The notes under the pieces were generated by a model. It searched no databases. It had not been told where the DNA came from and saw only the letters and a program-made list of their open reading frames with translations. Below, in pieces: positions 1 through 61,235 of a stretch of 61,235 bases of DNA (position 1 is the first letter of the stretch; every line of letters begins with the position of its first letter). This DNA comes from Escherichia phage slur01, in sequence record NC_028831.1. The stretch is one strand, 5' to 3'. The translations under genes and the position numbers were made by a program.

Positions 1-127
1 CACAGGCATCCCAGGCTGCACGTCCGGACAACCTATAACCACACCATCGCAGGAACCGCCAAAGTGTCCGCCAGCTTCGCTGATACGGAACTGGTGTCCA
101 TTTTCGTCCTGCTGATAGACCTGCATA
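1..127. repeat. 127-bp terminal direct repeat, identical to 61109..61235 (circular permutation or assembly overlap)
   Basis: Bases 1..127 match the last 127 bases of the window exactly; a minus-strand ORF reads through the junction. Confidence 0.9.
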
Positions 128-16281: not shown

Positions 16282-16332
16282 TTATCAATCTATAATGGGC
16301 TCTACGGAGCCCTTAATTATCTGGAGGCTGTT

Positions 16333-16629
16333 ATGCTGTATTTAGGAATGGACGAAACTGGACACGCGATCCCTTCTGTTAACAAGGAGACGCAAGTATT
16401 TACAGACTATTACGGGTCTGCTATCCCTGTAGAGCCCTGGGCAAACTTTATTGCTGTAGACGCAGACGGTAAAGTTCATTGTTATGACGCCAAACCTTCT
16501 TGCTATGAATCTGGTAAGCAATGGATGCTTGGCGTATACGGTTTGCATGTCCGCTACTGCGGCGAAGTTGACATTGAAGGTGTGGACTGGCGCGATACGT
16601 TGAAGGAGATTAAAGATGTCCGCGGCTGA
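16333..16629 (+). CDS. hypothetical protein, small paralog family member
   Basis: ANFIAVDADGKVHCYDAKP...DWRDTLKEI matches the family motif. Confidence 0.55.
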   Translation: MLYLGMDETGHAIPSVNKETQVFTDYYGSAIPVEPWANFIAVDADGKVHCYDAKPSCYESGKQWMLGVYGLHVRYCGEVDIEGVDWRDTLKEIKDVRG

Positions 16630-16705
16630 AGTTACGACATTTATAATAGCTTTTGCTGTTGCTTTATTCCTTATAGCTAAGTTAGATTTAATGATGGGAT
16701 AGTTT

Positions 16706-16930
16706 ATGCGCTTACTCATGGTGTTAGGTGTTATACTTGCCGCTTTCGTTGTATTTGCAATTGTAGACTCTAAAGAAATGGAGCGGCAAAACTGCCAACG
16801 TACTGGTAACAGCCGGGATGATATTATTTGGCAATATATTTACGATGCAAAAGGTAATGTTATGTCAATGTATCCTCAGGTTATTACTAAGTATGAATAT
16901 AAATGCAATGACCGTAACAGGTGGAGATAA
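16706..16930 (+). CDS. hypothetical membrane protein (one N-terminal TM helix)
   Basis: Hydrophobic N-terminus LLMVLGVILAAFVVFAIV. Confidence 0.5.
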   Translation: MRLLMVLGVILAAFVVFAIVDSKEMERQNCQRTGNSRDDIIWQYIYDAKGNVMSMYPQVITKYEYKCNDRNRWR

Positions 16931-16932
16931 TA

Positions 16933-17286
16933 ATGGAAGTTACTGAAGCTGCTAAACGCATGGTAAAATTCTATGTCGGTTCTGATGCACCTTTAATTCG
17001 CGCTTTTGGTCAGGAACTTTATGTTTTCCAGGGCGATCGAGAGGAGGCTGAAGAAATTGCTCAGGCAATCCTCGATCTGCAAGCAAAAGCGGATCGTGCG
17101 GAAGCCCTTGAAGCCGAATGGCGTGCTCAGGAAGAACGTGCCGAAAATGCTGAAACTGAATTAGTCGACTTGCGTGATCGCTATAGTCAATTGGAAGCTG
17201 TAGCAAAGGACTTCCTGCGTCGTAATAAATATGGTCCTTTGTTCTATCGTGATCTGTATAACCGTTTTAAGGAGATTGTAAAATGA
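16933..17286 (+). CDS. hypothetical coiled-coil protein
   Basis: ATG preceded by GTGGAG; Glu/Ala/Arg-rich heptad-like region. Confidence 0.5.
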   Translation: MEVTEAAKRMVKFYVGSDAPLIRAFGQELYVFQGDREEAEEIAQAILDLQAKADRAEALEAEWRAQEERAENAETELVDLRDRYSQLEAVAKDFLRRNKYGPLFYRDLYNRFKEIVK

Positions 17287-17552
17287 TTACTGCTCAAGAA
17301 GCTCGTGAATTAAGCGATAAGCTGGATATTAGCGAAGATATTGAATTTATCAGTGACAGCATTCGCGTAGCTGCTACAAAGGGATACAATAAAGTATCAC
17401 TGGTAACCAAATACGGCGCTGTTGGCAATCCTGACACTCAAGACCCGACCACTATGAAGATTGCTAAATGGTTAGCTGATTCTGGTTTTACGGTGTTATA
17501 TTATCCTTCAATGGACCAACGTGATAACGAGCGTACTGAGGTAGCATGGTGA
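17283..17552 (+). CDS. hypothetical protein
   Basis: 89-aa ORF; start overlaps the upstream stop. Confidence 0.5.
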   Translation: MITAQEARELSDKLDISEDIEFISDSIRVAATKGYNKVSLVTKYGAVGNPDTQDPTTMKIAKWLADSGFTVLYYPSMDQRDNERTEVAW

Positions 17553-17619
17553 TTGAAGAAAATATCAAATATTGGAAAGGCTTTATTGACGAAATGTTGA
17601 AACCATTGGAGAAGAAATA

Positions 17620-18012
17620 ATGCTATTAGTCGTCACCGGAGGTCGAAATTTTAAGCATGTGGAGTATATTTATGCTCAATTGGATAAGCTGCATATGCAA
17701 AGAAGGATAACCACACTTCGCCACGGTGACGCTGACGGTGTTGACCGCATTTGTGCACAGTGGGCAGAGCGCAACGGTATTAAGACAGAAGCGTTCCCTG
17801 CCCCGTGGGACAATCTTTCCTTACCAAATACCAAGATACGGTATAACGCCAAGGGTGCTTATAATGCACAAGCTGGCGCATACCGTAACCAATTAATGCT
17901 GGATACTGATCCTAAACCAGATCACGCTATTGTGTTTCCTGGCGGAGCTGGTACTATGGATATGTACAGACGGATTAAAGCATCCGGTATCCATTACACA
18001 TTAGCGGAGTAA
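17620..18012 (+). CDS. SLOG/DUF2493-like Rossmann-fold protein
   Basis: Motif series VVTGGRNF, HGDADGVDR, WAERNGI, VFPGGAGTMDM resembles YpsA/DprA-LOG (SLOG) superfamily proteins. Confidence 0.45.
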   Translation: MLLVVTGGRNFKHVEYIYAQLDKLHMQRRITTLRHGDADGVDRICAQWAERNGIKTEAFPAPWDNLSLPNTKIRYNAKGAYNAQAGAYRNQLMLDTDPKPDHAIVFPGGAGTMDMYRRIKASGIHYTLAE

Positions 18013-18015
18013 ATA

Positions 18016-18486
18016 ATGGCTGACGTTAAAACTATTGTTGATGCAATGGACGAATCCAAAGACTGCCAACTGAAGAAGTCGTTTGAAGTAAAACAGGTTA
18101 CAGAGACTCAGTTGGTCTGTAATTTTGCGCGTTATTGTGGACTGGGGCGCGGGAAAGACTGGAACGGGCTTATTGTTATGCCCACATCACAAATCCTCGT
18201 TTACGTTCGCAATATTCTTGAGGATTTATTATATCTTCAGATTGATATCGGTGATGTAGAAATCAATATGACTGCGAGCTCTACCATTGTGGTTAAATGG
18301 CAGTCGGGCGAGACACTGCGTTTGGAAGCGTGCCATTGTGCTAAGAGCCTACACCACCTGCGCGGTTGTCATTACCAGTTCGTTGGGTTTGTACATCCGC
18401 AAGGGTTAAGCGAGCGTACGGCGCTTGTAGCGCGTTTGCTTCTGCGTCCTTATAATAACGAGCCGGAAGTTATATACGAGGCATAA
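18016..18486 (+). CDS. hypothetical protein
   Basis: 156-aa ORF; no motif recognised. Confidence 0.5.
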   Translation: MADVKTIVDAMDESKDCQLKKSFEVKQVTETQLVCNFARYCGLGRGKDWNGLIVMPTSQILVYVRNILEDLLYLQIDIGDVEINMTASSTIVVKWQSGETLRLEACHCAKSLHHLRGCHYQFVGFVHPQGLSERTALVARLLLRPYNNEPEVIYEA

Positions 18487-18487
18487 A

Positions 18488-18913
18488 ATGTCAGTAAATT
18501 TTGTCAAACAGCCAACTTTAAATACATGCGTTTCTGCGTGTTTGGCAATGATCCTTAATAAACCTGTCGAAAAGGTCATTAAGGAATTTCACAGTCGTTA
18601 TTATAACAACTGGGAAATCACTATCAGCGAATATTTGACTAAAAACGGCGTCCCGCATCATTGTTCAGAAGGTGGTGGGCGTGAAACTTTGCATATGGGA
18701 GGTTTGTTCCTGTGCACGGTGCCAAGTCTTAATATTCCTGGCGCATTGCACCAGATTGTGATTGATATGACAGATCACAAGTTTATTGTGCATGATCCAA
18801 TTAAAGGATGGGAAGGTAAAAAGTTCTATGTTGGTCCGGATCAAGATCCTGAAGAGCCTGGAGCTTTTATCATTCATACTTGGGTCAAAGACGTTGAAAT
18901 CCTGCCTTATTAA
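18488..18913 (+). CDS. Putative papain-like (C39-like) cysteine peptidase
   Basis: N-terminal QPTLNTCVSACLAMIL (Gln-Cys arrangement as in C39 peptidases) with a downstream His in FIVHDP. Confidence 0.35.
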   Translation: MSVNFVKQPTLNTCVSACLAMILNKPVEKVIKEFHSRYYNNWEITISEYLTKNGVPHHCSEGGGRETLHMGGLFLCTVPSLNIPGALHQIVIDMTDHKFIVHDPIKGWEGKKFYVGPDQDPEEPGAFIIHTWVKDVEILPY

Positions 18914-18975
18914 TTTTCTTGCTATCACATAACCCTTCATTGTATTGTGTACCCATCGAATAAGAGGGGTACACA

Positions 18976-19161
18976 ATGACCAAACTATACGCCGGATTGT
19001 TTTTATTTGCGACGTTGATGTTCGCTGGGCTTTATACCTATACAGTAGTCGAACAACCTTCCACGGTTATCCGAATCTTTGCAAGTACAGGGCTTTGCAT
19101 CTGTCTTATTCTATTTGTTTTATGCATTGTTATTATCCAAGACCAAAGGAAAATTAAATGA
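18976..19161 (+). CDS. Small membrane protein (two TM helices)
   Basis: Two hydrophobic segments separated by a short loop; RBS GAGGGG. Confidence 0.5.
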   Translation: MTKLYAGLFLFATLMFAGLYTYTVVEQPSTVIRIFASTGLCICLILFVLCIVIIQDQRKIK

Positions 19162-19622
19162 CCACAATTGCGTTTGATGGAAAAGTATTAGCTGCGGACC
19201 GTGGAGTTATGCGCGGGGAAGCTGTGACTGCTTATAAGAAAGTTCATAGCGTGAATGGACATCGTGGACGGTTTTTACTGGGCTTGTGCGGCCTTACAGC
19301 ATTTACCGATCAGGTGTTGCGTTATTTTAATAGCGCGGAACCTGTTAAGTTCCCTGATATTAAACTTTACAGCAAAGATGATGATTACGGGCAAACTTGC
19401 GGTCTTGCTGTCACTCCGGAAGGTACTTGCCATTTTATTTATAATGATGGTACTTTGAGCGAGCCCATGCTGGATGGATGGGGGTCTGAGGGTAGCGGTT
19501 GTGTGTTTGCTGCTGGCGCGTTAGCTGCTGGTGCAAGTGCGAGCGAAGCTATTGAGTTGGCAATTAAACACACCACATGCGCATTCCTGGGAGTTGATAC
19601 AATATCATTTGAGGGTTTTTAA
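19158..19622 (+). CDS. HslV/proteasome-like Ntn-hydrolase peptidase homolog
   Basis: Starts MTTIAFDGKVLAADRGV (Thr directly after Met, as in HslV TTIV...); GWGSEGSGCVFAAGALAAG parallels the HslV GSGG segment. Confidence 0.5.
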   Translation: MTTIAFDGKVLAADRGVMRGEAVTAYKKVHSVNGHRGRFLLGLCGLTAFTDQVLRYFNSAEPVKFPDIKLYSKDDDYGQTCGLAVTPEGTCHFIYNDGTLSEPMLDGWGSEGSGCVFAAGALAAGASASEAIELAIKHTTCAFLGVDTISFEGF

Positions 19623-19623
19623 A

Positions 19624-20115
19624 ATGGAATGGTCTTCCATATTCACTTATTTGGATGGAAAGCTGTTCTGGAAAACTTCTAGAGGTGGTAGAGTTATACC
19701 AGGAGCACTTGCTGGTCATGCTACAAAGAGGGGTTACGTCAAAATACGATGCGGTTGTAGTTTCTATCTAAGGCATCGTATAGTATGGGAAATGCATAAT
19801 GGTTCCATTCCCGAAAATATGCAAATAGATCATATTAATCACGTTCCTGGAGATGATAGGATAGAGAATCTTAGATTAGTTACAAGTACATTAAATAATA
19901 GGAACGTAACCAGATCTAAGCTTAATAAGTCTGGTGTTACTGGTGTTTGCTATCACAAAAGAAATAAAAGATGGATAGCTTATATTAATACACAGGTCGG
20001 TCAAGTAAGACTTGGCTCTTTTATTAATTTTGAAGATGCTGTCAATGCTCGTAAAAATGCTGAGATTGTATATGAATACCACGAGAATCATGGAACTGAA
20101 CGTAAGAGTTTTTGA
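19624..20115 (+). CDS. HNH homing endonuclease with C-terminal AP2 domain
   Basis: HNH core HRIVWEMHNG...IDHINHVPGDDRIENL followed by AP2 segment SGVTGVCYHKRNKRWIAYI...GSFINFEDAVNARKNAE; start re-picked at ATG with GAGGG RBS. Confidence 0.75.
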   Translation: MEWSSIFTYLDGKLFWKTSRGGRVIPGALAGHATKRGYVKIRCGCSFYLRHRIVWEMHNGSIPENMQIDHINHVPGDDRIENLRLVTSTLNNRNVTRSKLNKSGVTGVCYHKRNKRWIAYINTQVGQVRLGSFINFEDAVNARKNAEIVYEYHENHGTERKSF

Positions 20116-20359
20116 TGTTTTACCTTCACAATTAAACTGGAGGATAAAAGATTTTTATAACTATGTCCAAGTGAACGATGATATTTTCTTCACTGATTGT
20201 GAGGAGGTAGCTATTGCGATTATTGATAGTCTGCAAACTAATGGCCTTGTTATCTTTTGGGATGGGGTTAACGATTACTCAGTATATTCAGAAAAGTATC
20301 TTGGCGAAGGGAACTCATTATTCGCTAAGTCCTGCGTTCTGGCATTCCTTAATAGATGA
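20090..20359 (+). CDS. hypothetical protein
   Basis: Start uncertain; chosen as the first ATG not deep inside the HNH gene. Confidence 0.35.
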   Translation: MELNVRVFDVLPSQLNWRIKDFYNYVQVNDDIFFTDCEEVAIAIIDSLQTNGLVIFWDGVNDYSVYSEKYLGEGNSLFAKSCVLAFLNR

Positions 20360-20444
20360 TCCGTCATATCCAATTCAGCTTGCTCCTCTTGATCAAAGCC
20401 TGTTAATATTATCAAGCCTAAATCAAGCGGAGGAGGCTTTATCT

Positions 20445-20882
20445 ATGGCACTTCAACCTCGTGGTATTCGTAATAACAATCCAGGCAATATTCGCTGGGG
20501 TGACAATTGGCAGGGCTTAGTTCCTGCTGATAAGCGAACCGATAAATCTTTTGCGCAATTCACGCAACCGATTTACGGCATTCGTGCACTAGCGAAAATC
20601 CTGACAAACTACACCAAACGTGAAGGCTTACCCAATGTGGGTAAGAAAAACATCGATACTGTACGTGAAATCATCGCTCGCTGGGCACCGCCTAACGAAA
20701 ACGATACGGAAGCGTATATTCGCTCTGTTGCCAAAGCAATTGGTGTTCAACCTAACGATCCAATTAATGTCTTCGACAAGGCAATTATGTCAGGATTGGT
20801 GAAAGCAATCATTCGTCATGAAAATGGCATGATGCCCTATACCGACGACGTAATTAACCGCGCTATTGCAATGGTACTTTAA
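20445..20882 (+). CDS. Putative endolysin (peptidoglycan hydrolase, fold unassigned)
   Basis: Strong RBS GGAGGAGG; conserved-looking GIRNNNPGNIRWGDNWQG motif; sits immediately upstream of holin and spanin genes. Confidence 0.4.
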   Translation: MALQPRGIRNNNPGNIRWGDNWQGLVPADKRTDKSFAQFTQPIYGIRALAKILTNYTKREGLPNVGKKNIDTVREIIARWAPPNENDTEAYIRSVAKAIGVQPNDPINVFDKAIMSGLVKAIIRHENGMMPYTDDVINRAIAMVL

Positions 20883-20884
20883 CT

Positions 20885-20909
20885 GACGGGGCGTTAGCCC
20901 CTTTTATTT
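20885..20909 (+). terminator. Rho-independent terminator
   Basis: GGGGCGTTAGCCCC hairpin followed by TTTTATTT. Confidence 0.55.
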
Positions 20910-20918
20910 GGAGGGAAC

Positions 20919-21263
20919 ATGTTCAATTCACCCAACGAACATTGGGCAGTTCTAGCGGGGTTTGCGTTTATCTCCCTCATTGGGGGAGCTCTCGGTTATG
21001 TCATGCGTACAATAGACGCTGGTAAGAAAGTACGGGCGAGCATTGCATTTCTTGAAGGCTTATCCGCCGCTTTCTTTGGCGTTATAATGTATGCGATCTA
21101 CAGGGAGTTTAACATCAGCCTTTGGTTCGCTTTTGGCCTTGCTGGCCTATTTGCTTGGGCAGGTTCACGTGCTACGCTAAAAGCCCTAACGTCGCTTATA
21201 GCTTCACGGACAGGGATCAAACTCGATTCAGGGGACTGCAAACATGAAAACGATTCTAAATAA
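20919..21263 (+). CDS. Putative holin (multi-TM membrane protein)
   Basis: Three to four hydrophobic helices and a charged C-terminus; directly upstream of the spanin pair. Confidence 0.5.
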   Translation: MFNSPNEHWAVLAGFAFISLIGGALGYVMRTIDAGKKVRASIAFLEGLSAAFFGVIMYAIYREFNISLWFAFGLAGLFAWAGSRATLKALTSLIASRTGIKLDSGDCKHENDSK

Positions 21264-21720
21264 CTTCTTCGGTTTTATAAAAACTAAACCGCGTCTGTTT
21301 ATCGAGTATTTGATGATCGGCGCGGTTGTGTTTTTATGCGGGGTGGCTGCATACTTGTGGTCACAGAACGAGCTCAGCAAAACTAATTTAAATCATGCTG
21401 AGCAAAGACTAACCGTTGTAGAACGGGACAATGCAAAGCTGGGCGAAGCTGTTGTATTTCTTGCATCCCAACGGGAGAAGGATACTGAATCCTATCGAAA
21501 ATTGGCTTCAGCGATTGAAAGTGAGCAACATAACCACAGGTTGCTTCAGGACAAATTAAAAGCACTGGAGAAAAGCAATGCCGACGTCAAAGCTTATCTT
21601 AATGAGCGTGTTCCTGATGATTTGCGCAGGCTGCTCGACGGAGATACAACCTCCACCACCGCCGCAGATAGTGAAGATAAAACTTCCGGCCCATCTGTTG
21701 GTAGAATGTCGGGAAGTTGA
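21244..21720 (+). CDS. Inner-membrane spanin (Rz-like i-spanin)
   Basis: N-terminal TM helix followed by a coiled-coil periplasmic region; the o-spanin gene overlaps its 3' end in another frame. Confidence 0.6.
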   Translation: MKTILNNFFGFIKTKPRLFIEYLMIGAVVFLCGVAAYLWSQNELSKTNLNHAEQRLTVVERDNAKLGEAVVFLASQREKDTESYRKLASAIESEQHNHRLLQDKLKALEKSNADVKAYLNERVPDDLRRLLDGDTTSTTAADSEDKTSGPSVGRMSGS

Positions 21721-21883
21721 TAAATATCCTTTGGTTTATACAAGGGACATTATCCAACGTTTGCAGGATACAGAAACAGCTCTGACTGAATGTAAACTGA
21801 GGGTTAAGGAAATCATACGCTATGAAGCTGAAAATGTTTCGCTTGATTTTGTAGGATCAAGCAATTATATTCAGCCTAAATAG
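21578..21883 (+). CDS. Outer-membrane lipoprotein spanin (Rz1-like o-spanin)
   Basis: Lipoprotein signal with lipobox LMICAGC|S and a Pro-rich stretch; overlaps the i-spanin out of frame. Confidence 0.6.
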   Translation: MPTSKLILMSVFLMICAGCSTEIQPPPPPQIVKIKLPAHLLVECREVDKYPLVYTRDIIQRLQDTETALTECKLRVKEIIRYEAENVSLDFVGSSNYIQPK

Positions 21884-21903
21884 CAATAAGAAAGGGGGCT
21901 TCC

Positions 21904-22461
21904 ATGAACGGGGCAAGTCAAGAGCAATATGATCGTGACTGGACGAATTACATCCAGTATGCAAATAGCTTGTCCGCTGAAGAGATGGCAATACGTGACA
22001 AAGTTGTTGCTGAGTACATGTTCGACTACAATTGGACTAACGCTTGCATGAGATGCGGGTTCAATGCTATGTTTGCACAGGAGCTTGGCCAACGCTTTGC
22101 CACGGACTGTTATGTTCGATGGAAGCTCAAGGAGATTGAAAGATCCCGTGTTCAACGTACTTCTGAGCAAGCTAACATTGAAGCAGACCTTGAGCGTCAG
22201 CATATCATTGAAGCATTAAAACGTGAAGCTCATTATACAGGACCGGGATCTTCTCAAGCTGCTAGAGTCGCCGCATTGGGCAAGCTTGCACAAATTTATG
22301 ATTTGGATGCTCCCAAGAAGGCTAAGATTGATGTTACTAACAGAGGCGGCGTAATGATAGTCCCTGCTGTAGCAAATATTGACGAATGGGAAAAAACTGC
22401 ATCCGAGTCTCAACAACGACTAGTTAAAGAGACTGAAGATGGAGCTAAACCGACAACCTGA
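21904..22461 (+). CDS. Terminase small subunit
   Basis: 185-aa protein immediately upstream of the large terminase; RBS AAGGGGG. Confidence 0.55.
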   Translation: MNGASQEQYDRDWTNYIQYANSLSAEEMAIRDKVVAEYMFDYNWTNACMRCGFNAMFAQELGQRFATDCYVRWKLKEIERSRVQRTSEQANIEADLERQHIIEALKREAHYTGPGSSQAARVAALGKLAQIYDLDAPKKAKIDVTNRGGVMIVPAVANIDEWEKTASESQQRLVKETEDGAKPTT

Positions 22462-24009: not shown

Positions 24010-25506
24010 ATGGGTATTGATGCAACTCACCCGCTATATGACAAGTGGAAGGATGCATGGGTCAAGTGCAACGACTGCTATGAGGGTGAAGATAAAATTA
24101 AGGAAGAAGGTGTTAAATATCTACCGCCTTTAGCTTCCATGATTATTGATGGGATGAATAATCCTAATGATTTGGGCTTTCAACGTTGGCTCGCTTATCG
24201 TCTGCGTGCTAACTTCCCTGACGATTATTCAAGTGCGGTTACAAACAATTTAGGTCTGCTGCACCAGAAGCCTCCTACAATCCAGCTTCCACCTGAAATG
24301 GAATACATGCGGGAGCTGTGTACTGCGGACGGTGAAGACATTATTGCTCTGCTACGTCGCATCAATGAAATGCAGTTAAAAAATGGACGTTTGGGCCTGC
24401 TGCTGGACTTGCCGAAAGGTGAGGATGTAAATAACAGACCTTATATTAGCGTTTATGATGCTTTATCCATTATCAACTGGGATGATGGTAAAGATGAATT
24501 GGGCAATATCAACTTGAACATGGTTGTTCTGGATGAAAGCGGTCCTGTACGTGTCAATCAGTTTGACTGGAAAGAAGAGAAGCGTTATCGCGTTCTACAA
24601 TTAGGTCCAATGGACACAGATGAAGTAGCAGGTGGAGCGGTCTACTCCCAACATCTGTTTATTAACAATACCAATTATGATGAAGGGCAAATGATTGCTC
24701 CTTATTATAAAGGTAATACGCTGGATGAAATTCCTTTCCAGTTTGTCAATACAACAGATATTACCCCAGCACCGGAAGCGCCGCCATTGTTGGGTCTTGC
24801 TAACATTTGTCTAAGCATGTACCGAAGTGACGCGGATTACCGCCAATGCTTGCATATGCAGGGTCAGGATACTTTAGTTGTTGTTGGTGGTTCCATGGAA
24901 AATGGAGATAAAGCCCCTCAGCGTATTGGTCCTGGTGCAGTCATTAACGTTTCTCAGGGAGGTGACGCTAAATATGTAGGTGTTAGCGGTGACGGTTTGT
25001 CCGAGCAACGTCTTGCACTGGCAGCGGATAAGCAAGAAGCCCAAATTAAAGCCGGGCAAATGGTAAACAACACCAAGAGCACGCAGGAATCAGGCGAAGC
25101 TATGAAAACGCGTATTGCTGCGCGTACAGCTAGTTTGATTCGAATTGCGTATACTGGTGCGGCTGGTTTGGAGAACTTGCTGAAGGTTTGCGCTAAGTGG
25201 ATGGGTGCGGATCCCGAGAAAGTTGTGGTTAAGCCTAATCTTGAATTTACCAAGAGCATGTTTAACGGTCAGGACTTTGTTCAAATTATTACTGCACGCA
25301 ACCTTAAGGCTCCGATTAGCTTGCAGTCTATTCATGGCTGGCTTGTTGATCAGGGCTTAACCACACTAAGCTTTGAAGAAGAAATGGCAATTCTTGAAGA
25401 AGAGCTTAAGAAGTGGCCTCTGCCCGATGATGCTAAAGCTGATTTAAACGCAGAGCAGCAAGTAAGCAAAGATCCTAAGGAAGACGACGCTTCCGATAAA
25501 GAATAG
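24010..25506 (+). CDS. Portal protein
   Basis: 498 aa, between terminase and scaffold genes, acidic C-terminus; RBS GGAGGG. Confidence 0.7.
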   Translation: MGIDATHPLYDKWKDAWVKCNDCYEGEDKIKEEGVKYLPPLASMIIDGMNNPNDLGFQRWLAYRLRANFPDDYSSAVTNNLGLLHQKPPTIQLPPEMEYMRELCTADGEDIIALLRRINEMQLKNGRLGLLLDLPKGEDVNNRPYISVYDALSIINWDDGKDELGNINLNMVVLDESGPVRVNQFDWKEEKRYRVLQLGPMDTDEVAGGAVYSQHLFINNTNYDEGQMIAPYYKGNTLDEIPFQFVNTTDITPAPEAPPLLGLANICLSMYRSDADYRQCLHMQGQDTLVVVGGSMENGDKAPQRIGPGAVINVSQGGDAKYVGVSGDGLSEQRLALAADKQEAQIKAGQMVNNTKSTQESGEAMKTRIAARTASLIRIAYTGAAGLENLLKVCAKWMGADPEKVVVKPNLEFTKSMFNGQDFVQIITARNLKAPISLQSIHGWLVDQGLTTLSFEEEMAILEEELKKWPLPDDAKADLNAEQQVSKDPKEDDASDKE

Positions 25507-25601
25507 TTGCAACTTCCAAGTTGATTGGTTTATATTAACGAACACGGGGCTGGGACGGCTCAGCTCCAAAAACGTCACACGGGTGACAACGGAGATAAGA
25601 A

Positions 25602-26474
25602 ATGAAAAAGAGTTCTGTAGCTATTAGTGTTGGTATGGCTTTAATTAATCCACGCGCTCGCGGTGAAGGTGATGTGGAACTGGAATACGAATATGCATCT
25701 GCGGAAGAGATCCCGGCAGAGTTTGCAACTCTTTACGCAGAGCAGGGCGGTAAATACGTTCTTGCAAAAGTTAAAGGTGTAGCCCCTGCTGATAGCGTTC
25801 GTCGTCTGGAAAGTGCATTGGCAAAAGAACGTAACGACCATCGTCAGGTGAAGCAACAGATTAGCGCACTTGGGCGTCCGGTTGAAGAAGTCCTTGCGGA
25901 CCTTGATCGTATCCCTCAACTGGAAGCTGCCGCTAACGGTAAAGGTACTCCGGAAGACATCGAAAAGATGGTTAAAGCTCGTCTTGCTCCGCTCGAGCGT
26001 CAATTGCAAACTGTAGCAGCTGAACGCGATTCCGTTAAGCAGGAAATTGAAGGCTACCGCACTCGCGAAACTAAAGCGAAGATTAAAGACGCAGTTATTG
26101 CTGCTGCATCCGGTGCTAAGCTGCGTCCGTCTGCTATCGAAGATGCGGTGACTTATGCACAGTTGCAAATGACCGTCGACGAGAACGGCAATGTGGTTAC
26201 GAAAGATGGGGCGGGTGTAACTCCATACCTAACCCCGGCGGATTGGCTTAACGAGATCCTCCCGAAACGTCCTCACTGGGTTGAGGGTTCTGCTGGTGGC
26301 GGTGCATCTGGTCCGGGCGCTGGCGGTCATCACGGTGAAGACCCATACAGTCACGACGGTTGGAACATCTCTAAGCAGATGAATCTCTGGAAAACTAATC
26401 AATCTTTAGCTAAACGCTTAGCTGAAAAGAATGGCGTAGATCCGCTGAAGCCTGTACGTCCTGCTAAGAAATAA
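25602..26474 (+). CDS. Head scaffolding protein
   Basis: Coiled-coil-rich, charged 290-aa protein immediately upstream of the major capsid gene. Confidence 0.6.
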   Translation: MKKSSVAISVGMALINPRARGEGDVELEYEYASAEEIPAEFATLYAEQGGKYVLAKVKGVAPADSVRRLESALAKERNDHRQVKQQISALGRPVEEVLADLDRIPQLEAAANGKGTPEDIEKMVKARLAPLERQLQTVAAERDSVKQEIEGYRTRETKAKIKDAVIAAASGAKLRPSAIEDAVTYAQLQMTVDENGNVVTKDGAGVTPYLTPADWLNEILPKRPHWVEGSAGGGASGPGAGGHHGEDPYSHDGWNISKQMNLWKTNQSLAKRLAEKNGVDPLKPVRPAKK

Positions 26475-26475
26475 G

Positions 26476-26504
26476 TTGACATCCCGACGTCCCTGATGTT
26501 AAGT
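26476..26504 (+). promoter_or_regulatory. Putative sigma70-like promoter TTGACA-17-TTAAGT upstream of the major capsid gene
   Basis: Consensus -35 TTGACA, 17-nt spacer, -10 TTAAGT; overlaps a 10-bp inverted repeat (26490..26520). Confidence 0.4.
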
Positions 26505-26596
26505 TTCAACACATCAGGGACACGGGTTCCTAAACAGCCTTCCACGGGGAAAGGCTACCAACAGTAAACAAATCAATCCTTTTCCTGGAGACAAGT

Positions 26597-27658
26597 ATGT
26601 CTAAATCTAAAATTATTCTGCCATTTGGTCGTGGTGAAACTGACCTGACTCGTTTGACGGATGTCATTGTCCCTGAGATCTTCACTGGTTATGTGCAGAC
26701 GCAGACCGCTGAACTTTCTGCTCTGATTCAATCCGGTGCGGTTGTAATGGACGAGCGTTTATCTGCTAACCTTGCTGGTGCAGGTCTGACTTTTAACGAG
26801 CCGTTCTATAACGACCTGAAAGATGAAGACGAAGATATCGCGGTTGATAAAGGTAATCCGTCAAAACCGTCTAATATCACTACCGGATCTGAAGTTCAGG
26901 TTCGTATGAGTCGTTCAAAATCCTGGGGTTCTGCGGATCTGGTATCAGCTTTGATTGGTAACGACCCAATGACCGCTATCGGTAACCGCGTGTCTGCGTG
27001 GTGGGTCCGCCGTCTGCAAGCTGCATACATCGCAACCTGGAAAGGTGTATTTGCTAATGCGAAGAAATCTCATAACGACGATTTGACTTTCGACATCTCT
27101 GGTTCTTCTTTTGTAAATAACCAGACCAACTTTACCGCGTCTAACTTCATCAACGCAACTGCAACGATGGGTGATGCTGCTCGCGGTCTGACCATGATTA
27201 TGGTACACTCTACCGTTCGTAACCGTATGCGTCAGTTGAACCTGATCGACTTCATTCCGGATGCTCGCGGTGAAACTCAGTTTGAGTATTATCAGGGTCT
27301 GCGTATTATTGAAGACGACTCCATGCCGCACGATCCGTCTACTGGTGTGTTTGAAAGCTGGCTGTTCGGCCCGGGCGCAACTGCAATGGGTGCTGGATCA
27401 CCGAAAGTTCCGACCGCTGTGGTGCGTGACGAAGCCGCTAACCAAGGCGCTGGTGAAGAAGTTCTTCACAACCGTGTTGAATGGATTCTGCATCCGGTTG
27501 GCCATGCTTGGGCTGCTGCTCAAACTGCTAAAGGTGGTCCGTCTAACGCTGCTACCACTAACAACCTGGCCCATGAAGATTCCTGGCGTCGTGCGTTCCC
27601 TGAGCGCAAGCAGCTTAAAGTTGCACGCCTGATTACTCGTGAGTATCAGGGTTCCTAA
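26597..27658 (+). CDS. Major capsid protein
   Basis: 353 aa, follows the scaffold gene, followed by a strong terminator. Confidence 0.75.
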   Translation: MSKSKIILPFGRGETDLTRLTDVIVPEIFTGYVQTQTAELSALIQSGAVVMDERLSANLAGAGLTFNEPFYNDLKDEDEDIAVDKGNPSKPSNITTGSEVQVRMSRSKSWGSADLVSALIGNDPMTAIGNRVSAWWVRRLQAAYIATWKGVFANAKKSHNDDLTFDISGSSFVNNQTNFTASNFINATATMGDAARGLTMIMVHSTVRNRMRQLNLIDFIPDARGETQFEYYQGLRIIEDDSMPHDPSTGVFESWLFGPGATAMGAGSPKVPTAVVRDEAANQGAGEEVLHNRVEWILHPVGHAWAAAQTAKGGPSNAATTNNLAHEDSWRRAFPERKQLKVARLITREYQGS

Positions 27659-60628: not shown

Positions 60629-61235
60629 TCAATCTTTCCCGTAATAATTAGCTACTTGATAGTTTTGACAACCAACTTTCTGTCCTTGCGTATCCACTGC
60701 GGCGGAATGGAAATTGCAATACCATGTTCCATCTTCTTTTGGTTCAAGGAATTGACATGTGCGGCAGTTTACTTCCGGCATAGTTTTACGCCAGCATAGT
60801 GAGGAGTGATCGCACCATTTACATTCGAAGAAAGTGGAATCTTTAAATGCGCGGTCCGGAATATCTGTAGCAATAGCAATCTGCACACCACGATCAATAT
60901 ACATGTCCGCGGTAACAGGATCAAACGGAATAATTTCTGCGTAAACTTCATCGTCATTCTTGTTTACAGCAAGATATAACGCTGCGCCAAGACCTAGTTT
61001 TCGCATGTACACGTTCATCTGTACATAGTGCTCAGGTTTGGCTTCTTTAACACCTTTAGCTTTCAGCTTTTTAAAAGACTTATCGTTATGCGTCTTCATT
61101 TCGGTGAGCACAGGCATCCCAGGCTGCACGTCCGGACAACCTATAACCACACCATCGCAGGAACCGCCAAAGTGTCCGCCAGCTTCGCTGATACGGAACT
61201 GGTGTCCATTTTCGTCCTGCTGATAGACCTGCATA
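60629..61235 (-). CDS. 3' part of the YqaJ/lambda-Exo-like PD-(D/E)xK exonuclease (5' part at 1..429 across the junction)
   Basis: In frame with the 1..429 segment through the terminal repeat; C-terminal Cys cluster CKWC...CWRK...CRTC; total about 302 aa. Confidence 0.7.
   Translation of the reverse strand, partial: MQVYQQDENGHQFRISEAGGHFGGSCDGVVIGCPDVQPGMPVLTEMKTHNDKSFKKLKAKGVKEAKPEHYVQMNVYMRKLGLGAALYLAVNKNDDEVYAEIIPFDPVTADMYIDRGVQIAIATDIPDRAFKDSTFFECKWCDHSSLCWRKTMPEVNCRTCQFLEPKEDGTWYCNFHSAAVDTQGQKVGCQNYQVANYYGKD
61109..61235. repeat. 127-bp terminal direct repeat, identical to 1..127
   Basis: Exact identity with the first 127 bases of the window. Confidence 0.9.

What the first reader, a model, noticed from the sequence alone, without database searches (positions are those of the whole stretch)
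19158..19622. HslV/proteasome-like Ntn-hydrolase homolog encoded by the phage
The protein begins Met-Thr-Thr-Ile, which would expose an N-terminal threonine nucleophile as in HslV, and has a Gly-Ser-Gly-rich segment aligned to the HslV GSGG region. Proteasome-like peptidases are unusual in phages and could process phage or host proteins. It lies two genes downstream of a putative C39-like cysteine peptidase, separated by a small membrane protein.
Basis: partly seen in the sequence, partly recalled or inferred. Interest (0 to 1): 0.6.

Follow-up and report, generated by a model that had tools for sequence, protein, structure and literature searches.

The report
Phage mini-proteasome homolog (PPH family)
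The gene is real and encodes a compact proteasome/HslV-like threonine peptidase, but it belongs to a phage-typical family (PPH) described by bioinformatics in 2021 and already labelled this way in GenBank, and its role in infection is still unknown.

The parts
19158..19622 (+). PPH-family proteasome-like N-terminal-threonine peptidase gene (154 aa plus stop)
19146..19150 (+). Shine-Dalgarno-like AAGGA, 7 nt upstream of the ATG; the ATG overlaps the upstream stop codon (ATGA, 19158-19161)
   Evidence: read directly from the sequence
19161..19163 (+). codon of Thr2, the predicted N-terminal nucleophile once Met1 is removed
   Evidence: Thr in 157 and Ser in 10 of 167 family members; invariant in A1
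19197..19199 (+). codon of Asp14 (equivalent to proteasome/HslV Asp17)
   Evidence: 166/167 conserved; aligned with HslV D17
19239..19241 (+). codon of Lys28 (equivalent to Lys33)
   Evidence: 167/167 conserved; aligned with HslV K33
19290..19292 (+). codon of Gly45 (oxyanion-hole glycine; Gly47 in proteasome numbering, Gly45 in HslV)
   Evidence: 167/167 conserved
19332..19394 (+). residues 59-79: loop that replaces helix H2, with the family-conserved Pro66 and an acidic stretch (K73-D74-D75-D76) where HslV has its basic pore cluster
   Evidence: no helix between H47-58 and E80-85 in the model; P66 162/167 and acidic columns 72-76; HslV R86/R89/K90 fall in or next to an insertion relative to the family HMM
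19491..19499 (+). codons of Gly112-Ser113-Gly114 (equivalent to HslV G123-S124-G125; proteasome Ser129 region)
   Evidence: G 167/167, S 143/167, G 167/167; aligned with HslV GSGG
19596..19598 (+). codon of Asp147 in the last strand (inferred equivalent of proteasome Asp166)
   Evidence: 147/167 conserved; the equivalence rests on position in the fold and was not checked by superposition
18976..19161 (+). context: 61-aa predicted membrane protein whose stop overlaps the PPH start; restricted to this phage group
   Evidence: phrog_22841; not found next to PPH outside Seuratvirus-like loci
18488..18913 (+). context: 141-aa C39-like/papain-like putative cysteine peptidase (weak assignment)
   Evidence: Pfam Peptidase_C39 E=0.042, below threshold; invariant Q8, C14, H88, D103; AF2 pLDDT 64.7; best Foldseek hits are C39 domains of PCAT1, LahT and ComA, none at E<=1e-3
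19624..20115 (+). context: HNH homing endonuclease inserted directly after the PPH gene; absent from most relatives
   Evidence: Pfam HNH_3 E=1.5e-19; only 4 of 33 related records cover the whole stretch; CAjan has no gene here
20888..20901 (+). context: terminator-like hairpin (GGGGC-GTTA-GCCCC plus a T-run) after the endolysin gene; likely end of the transcription block that contains the PPH gene
   Evidence: consensus scan only; a terminator is annotated in the Seurat record under the matching stretch

Best explanation
[quoted passage not shown] Inferred mechanism: host methionine aminopeptidase removes Met1, which is favoured because Thr is a small second residue. This exposes Thr2, whose side-chain hydroxyl attacks peptide bonds. 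Its own free amino group and the Lys28/Asp14 pair act as the proton relay, Gly45 supplies the oxyanion hole, and Ser113 and Asp147 stabilise the site, as in proteasome beta subunits and HslV. No propeptide needs to be cut. Helices H3 and H4, which join the two rings in HslV, BPH and the proteasome, are kept, so a ring-shaped homo-oligomer is plausible. Helix H2 and the basic pore cluster that HslV needs for HslU-dependent activity are missing and replaced by a conserved acidic loop. The enzyme therefore most likely works without HslU, as BPH appears to. It lies in the + strand gene block that ends with the endolysin and is followed by the holin/spanin and packaging genes, and relatives in other phages also usually sit next to terminase and portal genes. 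This suggests expression with the late program. Fold, family and conserved catalytic residues are shown; the chemistry, oligomeric state, HslU-independence, timing and substrates are inferred.
Against: No enzymatic data exist for any PPH. The related BPH was inert on standard substrates despite a complete active site (PMC5777263), so conserved residues do not guarantee general peptidase activity. Connectase, another proteasome homolog, is a ligase. The oligomeric state could not be modelled here. The Pfam Proteasome score (15.4 bits) is below the gathering threshold of 22.4 and NCBIfam has no hit, so the assignment rests on profile and fold comparison. Direct clustering with the published PPH representative (WP_042125023.1) could not be done. 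Late expression is inferred from gene order only; the promoter and terminator scans are not above chance as a class.
Confidence: 0.8

Rival explanations
1. A true phage HslV that docks onto the host unfoldase HslU (ClpY) and redirects ATP-dependent proteolysis, as the first reader proposed to test.
For: HslV chains are the best sequence and fold matches. The host E. coli encodes hslVU. The family keeps the same N-terminal Thr-Thr, KKV and GSG motifs as HslV. One GenBank record calls a homolog 'ATP-dependent protease'.
Confidence: 0.1
2. A monomeric or non-ring, highly specific enzyme that makes a single processing cut in one phage or host protein, or acts as a connectase-like peptide ligase or other amidase, rather than a self-compartmentalised degradative protease.
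Confidence: 0.15
3. A trans-acting head-maturation or scaffold-removing protease that substitutes for the canonical prohead protease this phage lacks.
For: The window's head module runs portal, scaffolding protein, major head protein, with no recognisable prohead protease. PPH genes lie within 5 kb of terminase, portal or MuF genes, on the same strand, in 40 of 57 locus groups. In 261 ORFs from 56 PPH loci, the capsid families found (P22 coat, SPP1 Gp13-like, Phage_capsid_2/3, GP7, SU10) are, as far as I know, types that assemble with a separate scaffold. No prohead-protease Pfam family had two or more hits.
Against: From general knowledge, P22-, SPP1- and T7-type heads mature without any protease. 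The gene is not between portal and capsid genes, and here it is separated from them by the lysis cassette and a terminator-like site. The census has low power: only about 10 loci reached a capsid gene, and families with a single hit beyond the top 25 were not shown. A 10-kb window covers a large fraction of a 40-60 kb genome, so proximity is only moderately enriched.
Confidence: 0.1

Closest known systems
[quoted passage not shown]
   Same: It is compact (154 aa against about 140) and encoded in a tailed phage, with relatives in prophages. Helix H2 is missing. There is no propeptide and no C-terminal extension. The Thr1/Asp17/Lys33/Gly47 equivalents are conserved. Its nearest relatives are HslV and BPH (group I). 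No AAA+ partner was found.
   Different: No feature was found to differ. This phage's clade is slightly longer, owing to short insertions at residues 35-36 and 71-78. Direct clustering with the published representative could not be run. My searches suggest the family is far larger (7,900 clusters at 50% identity with E<=1e-10) than the 324 nr90 sequences reported in 2021. They also show a bias toward packaging-gene neighbourhoods, whereas the paper reported no informative gene context.
HslV (ClpQ), the peptidase of the bacterial HslUV protease
   Different: The phage protein is about 20 residues shorter and lacks H2. The basic pore cluster R86/R89/K90 is replaced by an acidic loop, and the Lys28 column is not conserved. 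It scores below the Pfam threshold and has no NCBIfam HslV hit. No hslU lies next to it. It is phage-borne.
BPH (Betaproteobacteria proteasome homolog; PDB 5ovs, 5ovu)
   Different: BPH is 185-200 aa, keeps H2 and has a much longer pore loop. It is chromosomal and linked to stress operons, and forms tetradecamers. The oligomeric state of PPH is unknown.
20S proteasome beta subunits (MEROPS family T1)
   Different: PPH has no propeptide, no alpha-ring partner, no H2 and no C-terminal S12/H5 elements, and it is much shorter.

Membership tests
Proteasome-like Ntn hydrolases (MEROPS T1 superfamily) | Alpha-beta-beta-alpha sandwich fold of proteasome beta/HslV | tested here: met
Proteasome-like Ntn hydrolases (MEROPS T1 superfamily) | Thr/Ser nucleophile at the mature N-terminus, plus Asp17, Lys33 and the Gly47 oxyanion hole | tested here: met
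   Position 2 is Thr 157 / Ser 10 of 167; Asp14 166, Lys28 167, Gly45 167
Proteasome-like Ntn hydrolases (MEROPS T1 superfamily) | Curated sequence-model threshold (Pfam PF00227 Proteasome) | tested here: not met
   15.4 bits against a gathering score of 22.4, E=0.015. The family is too divergent for the model, so membership rests on profile and fold evidence.
Proteasome-like Ntn hydrolases (MEROPS T1 superfamily) | Peptide-bond hydrolysis dependent on Thr1 | not testable with these tools
   Needs purified protein, inhibitor labelling and a T2A mutant
HslV (ClpQ) sensu stricto | Two apical helices H1 and H2, with the basic pore cluster Arg86/Arg89/Lys90 | tested here: not met
   No helix between residues 59 and 79. 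HslV residues 86-90 fall in or next to an insertion relative to the family HMM, and the family has D/E-rich columns there. Role of the cluster from PMC5777263.
HslV (ClpQ) sensu stricto | Partner AAA+ HslU encoded alongside (hslVU operon) or otherwise co-occurring | tested here: not met
   No AAA+ gene in the window block 16333-22461 or among conserved neighbours in 57 viral locus groups. The host has its own hslVU.
HslV (ClpQ) sensu stricto | Clearly closer to HslV than to other proteasome homologs | tested here: inconclusive
HslV (ClpQ) sensu stricto | Activation by HslU binding | not testable with these tools
   Biochemical assay needed
PPH (Fuchs et al. 2021) | Compact subunit of about 140 residues, without propeptide, insertions or C-terminal extension | tested here: met
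   154 aa here; the 166 retrieved relatives have a median of 148 aa. The protein starts M-T and ends right after the last strand.
PPH (Fuchs et al. 2021) | Second helix (H2) absent (shared only with RPC, which has a C-terminal extension) | tested here: met
   DSSP of the model gives H47-58 and then no helix until strand 80-85. Definition from PMC8665760 section 3.3.
PPH (Fuchs et al. 2021) | Encoded by tailed phages, or in bacterial genomes flanked by phage genes | tested here: met
   The window is a Seuratvirus-like phage. 143 IMG/VR contigs were confirmed. Prophage-like contexts with terminase, portal and capsid genes.
PPH (Fuchs et al. 2021) | Clusters with the published PPH set (representative WP_042125023.1; KEGG OC.1434257) | not tested
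   The reference sequence and the CLANS/HHpred 'proteasome_homologs' database are not available in these tools; the paper's held supplement lacks it.
BPH | 185-200 aa subunit with H2 retained and a long acidic pore loop | tested here: not met
   Here the protein is 154 aa with H2 absent. An acidic loop is present but short. BPH description from PMC5777263.
Peptidase C39 (neighbour gene 18488-18913, not the finding itself) | Papain-like fold with a Gln/Cys/His/Asp catalytic arrangement, and the Pfam PF03412 threshold | tested here: inconclusive
   Q8, C14, H88 and D103 are invariant in 12 homologs. Pfam gives 14.1 bits against 22. The model has pLDDT 64.7. The best Foldseek hits are C39 domains, but E>=0.05.

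The most novel reading that the evidence does not exclude
PPH is an HslU-independent, late-expressed phage protease with a dedicated role at the transition to packaging and lysis. One candidate role is removing scaffolding protein, or another assembly or host factor, in phages whose head modules lack a canonical prohead protease. That would be a second, unrelated kind of virion-assembly protease, built on the proteasome fold. The evidence is only gene placement: packaging genes within 5 kb in 40 of 57 locus groups, and no canonical prohead protease seen near PPH.
Probability: 0.1. Interest if true: 0.65.

Novelty: already known. Interest (0 to 1): 0.3.

Why it matters
[quoted passage not shown] This phage group infects E. 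coli K-12 and is easy to manipulate genetically; CAjan, Seurat and several BASEL-collection phages carry an identical protein. That makes it a convenient system for asking what a minimal, H2-less proteasome homolog does, whether it forms rings, and whether it needs an unfoldase. The finding does not reveal a new kind of element, because both the gene annotation and the family description already exist.

Tried and rejected
1. Single-sequence search against PDB gave nothing meaningful (best hit an S-layer protein, E=0.04); only the family profile reached HslV.
2. NCBIfam and PADLOC gave no relevant hit for the protein or its neighbours, so a link to a defence or anti-defence system has no support from those libraries.
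3. A conserved C39-like / membrane protein / PPH module was rejected: these neighbours cluster only with the near-identical IMG/VR contig L005.
4. A conserved AAA+ or other partner was not found in viral loci. In 35 bacterial loci nothing was conserved beyond shadow ORFs.
5. Literature searches for experimental work on phage HslV-like or PPH proteins found only annotation mentions and the 2021 bioinformatics paper. The Avs2 paper that mentions Seuratvirus concerns the terminase, not this gene.
6. The paper on HslV-HslU functional interactions (PMC124242) is not held. The statement about HslV Lys28 therefore rests on my own recollection, while the R86/R89/K90 statement is cited from PMC5777263.
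7. The promoter scan is not above chance (34 found against 24.9 +/- 5.2), nor is the terminator scan (13 against 10.3 +/- 3.6), so the operon boundaries are tentative.
8. The prohead-protease census has low power and is reported only as weak evidence.
9. Oligomer modelling and mapping of conservation onto the model surface could not be done, because predictions are single-chain only and coordinates are not exposed.

Full report
OBSERVATION. The ORF at 19158-19622 on the + strand is present and translates to 154 residues beginning MTTIAFDGKVLAADRG. An AAGGA Shine-Dalgarno-like motif lies 7 nt upstream. The ATG overlaps the TGA of the preceding 61-codon membrane-protein ORF (ATGA), so the two are probably translationally coupled; this is read directly from the sequence. 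The window is a Seuratvirus-like E. coli siphophage (Queuovirinae), 97-98% identical over this region to phages SHIN8, CAjan, Seurat and others. Its first 127 bases recur at its end, so it is a circularly closed assembly of about 61.1 kb. The protein is 100% identical in at least 15 deposited phage genomes. Several records already label it 'peptidase HslV family' (the PHROG/pharokka name) or 'putative protease' (CAjan). A 63%-identical homolog in Hafnia phage yong3 is called 'ATP-dependent protease'.

CATALYTIC RESIDUES. An exhaustive profile search of 1.84 billion cluster representatives found 11,461 proteins at E<=1e-3 and 7,900 at E<=1e-10. The 166 sequences retrieved in all have a median length of 148 residues. 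I aligned these with the query, 167 sequences in total. Position 2 is Thr in 157 and Ser in 10. Asp14 is present in 166, Lys28 in 167 and Gly45 in 167. Gly112-Ser113-Gly114 are present in 167, 143 and 167, and Asp147 in 147. In HMM alignments these columns align with HslV Thr1, Asp17, Lys33, Gly45 and G-S124-G. The equivalence of Asp147 to proteasome Asp166 is inferred from its place in the last strand. Almost every member starts M-T or M-S. The few with longer N-termini have an internal Met directly before the Thr-Thr, which looks like a mis-called start rather than a propeptide. The second refutation criterion, non-conservation of Thr2, is therefore also not met. Strict conservation of the whole catalytic set argues for an active enzyme rather than a pseudo-enzyme. 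Removal of Met1 by methionine aminopeptidase before a small residue such as Thr is established general knowledge and was not shown here.

WHAT IT IS NOT: AN HslV PROPER. The protein is about 20 residues shorter than E. coli HslV (176 codons, taken from MG1655). The model has H1 (residues 47-58), then a loop up to strand 80-85, with no second helix. In the alignment to E. coli HslV, the missing material is the H2 region. HslV's basic pore cluster Arg86/Arg89/Lys90 falls in or next to an insertion relative to the family profile. The family instead has an Asp/Glu-rich stretch there (K73-D74-D75-D76 here) and a family-specific W56...G60...P66 signature. The BPH structure paper states that mutating R86/R89/K90 severely reduces HslV activity and that HslU binding remodels this region. 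It also reports that HslU-interface residues are not conserved in BPH and that BPH did not pull down HslU (PMC5777263). The column corresponding to HslV Lys28 is variable in this family; from my own recollection of the H. influenzae HslUV structure, that residue contacts the HslU C-terminus. No AAA+ gene lies near the gene in this window or among conserved neighbours elsewhere (see below).

WHAT IT IS: PPH. [quoted passage not shown] They describe it as about 140 residues long and found in Caudovirales phages and, flanked by phage genes, in their hosts. It belongs to 'group I', radiating from BPH together with HslV, AAH and CPH. It has no propeptide, and PPH and its relative RPC are the only homologs besides connectase to lack a helix of the first pair: they lack H2. 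[quoted passage not shown] They found no informative gene context, no AAA+ partner and no functional data. Every feature I could test matches: size, absence of H2, no propeptide, no C-terminal extension (which excludes RPC), phage context, and HslV/BPH as nearest relatives. I could not run the direct clustering test, because the reference sequence WP_042125023.1 is not available here. I found no later paper that characterises PPH and no experimental paper on phage HslV-like proteins.

CONTEXT. In the window the gene sits in a run of + strand genes:
- a YspA/SLOG-domain protein, 17620-18012 (Pfam E=3.5e-18);
- a 156-aa protein of unknown function;
- the 141-aa C39-like protein;
- the 61-aa membrane protein;
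- PPH;
- an HNH homing endonuclease, 19624-20115;
- an 86-aa protein (phrog_23528);
- the endolysin, 20445-20882;
- a terminator-like hairpin, 20888-20901;
- then holin, spanins, small and large terminase, portal, scaffolding protein and major head protein.

No canonical prohead protease is present in the head module. The HNH gene is absent from most relatives, so it is a mobile insertion.

I fetched 80 IMG/VR loci carrying a family member, called ORFs and clustered neighbours within 5 kb. This gave 57 non-redundant locus groups. The recurrent neighbours are large terminase (30 groups), portal (19), small terminase (13) and Mu-F-like head protein (7), all on the same strand. At least one of them is present in 40 of the 57 groups, and their identities were checked with Pfam. 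Providencia phage PSTCR7 and Nonagvirus JenK1 show the same order as here: PPH, then lysis genes, then terminase. Three metagenomic or prophage contexts agree. This is a moderate enrichment, since a 10-kb window is a sizeable part of a 40-60 kb genome. It suggests expression with the late program.

The window's C39-like, membrane and 156-aa neighbours cluster only with the near-identical contig L005. They are therefore not part of a conserved module with PPH.

A Pfam census of 261 mid-sized ORFs from 56 loci found capsid families of the P22-coat, SPP1 Gp13-like, Phage_capsid_2/3, GP7 and SU10 types. No prohead-protease family had two or more hits. This is suggestive but underpowered.

THE C39-LIKE NEIGHBOUR. 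Its homologs are confined to this phage group. Gln8, Cys14, His88 and Asp103 are invariant, in the order expected for a papain-like/C39 peptidase. However, Pfam is below threshold (E=0.042) and the profile finds nothing in PDB. The model is mediocre (pLDDT 64.7). The best Foldseek matches are C39 domains (PCAT1, a double-glycine protease, ComA), but only at E=0.05-0.7. The assignment is plausible but not established.

MECHANISM AND RIVALS. Best supported (about 0.8 for the family and the chemistry): a PPH-family N-terminal-threonine peptidase that needs no propeptide cleavage. It keeps the H3/H4 ring-contact helices and so may form HslV/BPH-like rings. It lacks the HslU-responsive elements and so probably acts without an unfoldase. 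It is made together with late functions. The substrates are unknown. The rivals are:
- HslU-dependent action (about 0.1);
- a non-ring, highly specific processing enzyme or ligase in the manner of connectase (about 0.15);
- a trans-acting head-assembly protease (about 0.1), which is compatible with the best explanation rather than exclusive of it.

A caution applies: BPH has a complete active site and binds epoxomicin, yet it was inert on standard substrates.

NOVELTY AND VERDICT. However, the gene is already annotated as such in public records, and the family was described and named in 2021. The refinements made here are as follows:
- it is PPH rather than HslV;
- the H2 deletion removes HslV's basic pore cluster and leaves a conserved acidic loop;
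- the family is much larger than was reported in 2021;
- it tends to sit next to packaging and lysis genes;
- the C39-like neighbour is not a conserved partner.

Interest is modest. The protein family is an open functional question in a tractable E. coli phage, but nothing here would surprise a specialist.

Noticed in passing
window 1-127 and 61109-61235: The first 127 bases are repeated exactly at the end of the window. The window is therefore a circularly closed assembly of a complete phage genome of about 61,108 bp, permuted relative to the reference Seuratvirus records (there the PPH gene lies near 57 kb).
   Followed up: partly
window 19624-20115 (+): An HNH homing endonuclease (Pfam HNH_3 E=1.5e-19, plus a weak AP2-like region) is inserted directly after the PPH stop codon. 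Only 4 of 33 related phage records cover this stretch, and CAjan and Seurat lack it, so it looks like a recent mobile insertion.
   Followed up: partly
window 18488-18913 (+): A 141-aa protein has invariant Gln8, Cys14, His88 and Asp103 and weak fold similarity to C39 double-glycine peptidase domains (best Foldseek E=0.05; model pLDDT 64.7). It is confined to Seuratvirus-like phages. Its function and any substrate are unknown.
   Followed up: yes
window 18486-18488, compared with L085 1189-1395 and L086 1189-1395: Relatives such as SLUR76 and Greed carry an extra 68-codon ORF between the 156-aa gene and the C39-like gene. It is absent here, and the C39-like protein has a different N-terminus (MSVNFVKQ against MIKHVKQ).
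   Followed up: no
window 17620-18012 (+): A YspA/cpYpsA-related SLOG-domain protein (Pfam PF10686, E=3.5e-18) lies three genes upstream of the PPH gene. Different records annotate it as 'GTP-binding domain' or 'phosphoribosyl transferase'. SLOG domains are usually linked to nucleotide-derived ligands. Its role here is unexplored.
   Followed up: no
window 24010-27658 (+): The head module runs portal, scaffolding protein (phrog_206), major head protein (phrog_247), with no recognisable prohead protease. Capsid genes near PPH in other loci were also of scaffold-dependent types (P22 coat, SPP1 Gp13-like, T7-like).
   Followed up: partly
protein family: The profile search found 7,900 cluster representatives (50% identity) at E<=1e-10, against the 324 nr90 sequences listed for PPH in the 2021 paper. 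The family appears to be one to two orders of magnitude larger than published, mostly in metagenomes.
   Followed up: partly
L093-L101, L106, L113, L120, L123, L124 (genome contigs): Many Roseomonas, Falsiroseomonas and other Acetobacteraceae genomes carry a 138-aa PPH homolog. No conserved non-phage neighbour was detected, but high-GC shadow ORFs obscured the analysis. The 2021 paper noted Pseudoalteromonas and Mesorhizobium as lineages with non-phage contexts, but not this one.
   Followed up: partly
L090 4001-4495 (Nonagvirus JenK1 gp80) and similar hits H47-H60: Nonagvirus phages have a PPH-like gene at the same position (upstream of the lysis genes). It aligns with the query only over residues 1-117, at about 30-36% identity, so the C-terminal third, which includes the GSG region, is strongly diverged.
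   Followed up: no
window 16297-16312 and 20888-20901 (+): Two GC-rich hairpins followed by T-runs bracket the + strand block 16333-20882 that holds the SLOG, C39-like, PPH, HNH and endolysin genes. This may define a transcription unit, although the number of terminator-like sites in the region is not above the shuffled expectation.
   Followed up: no
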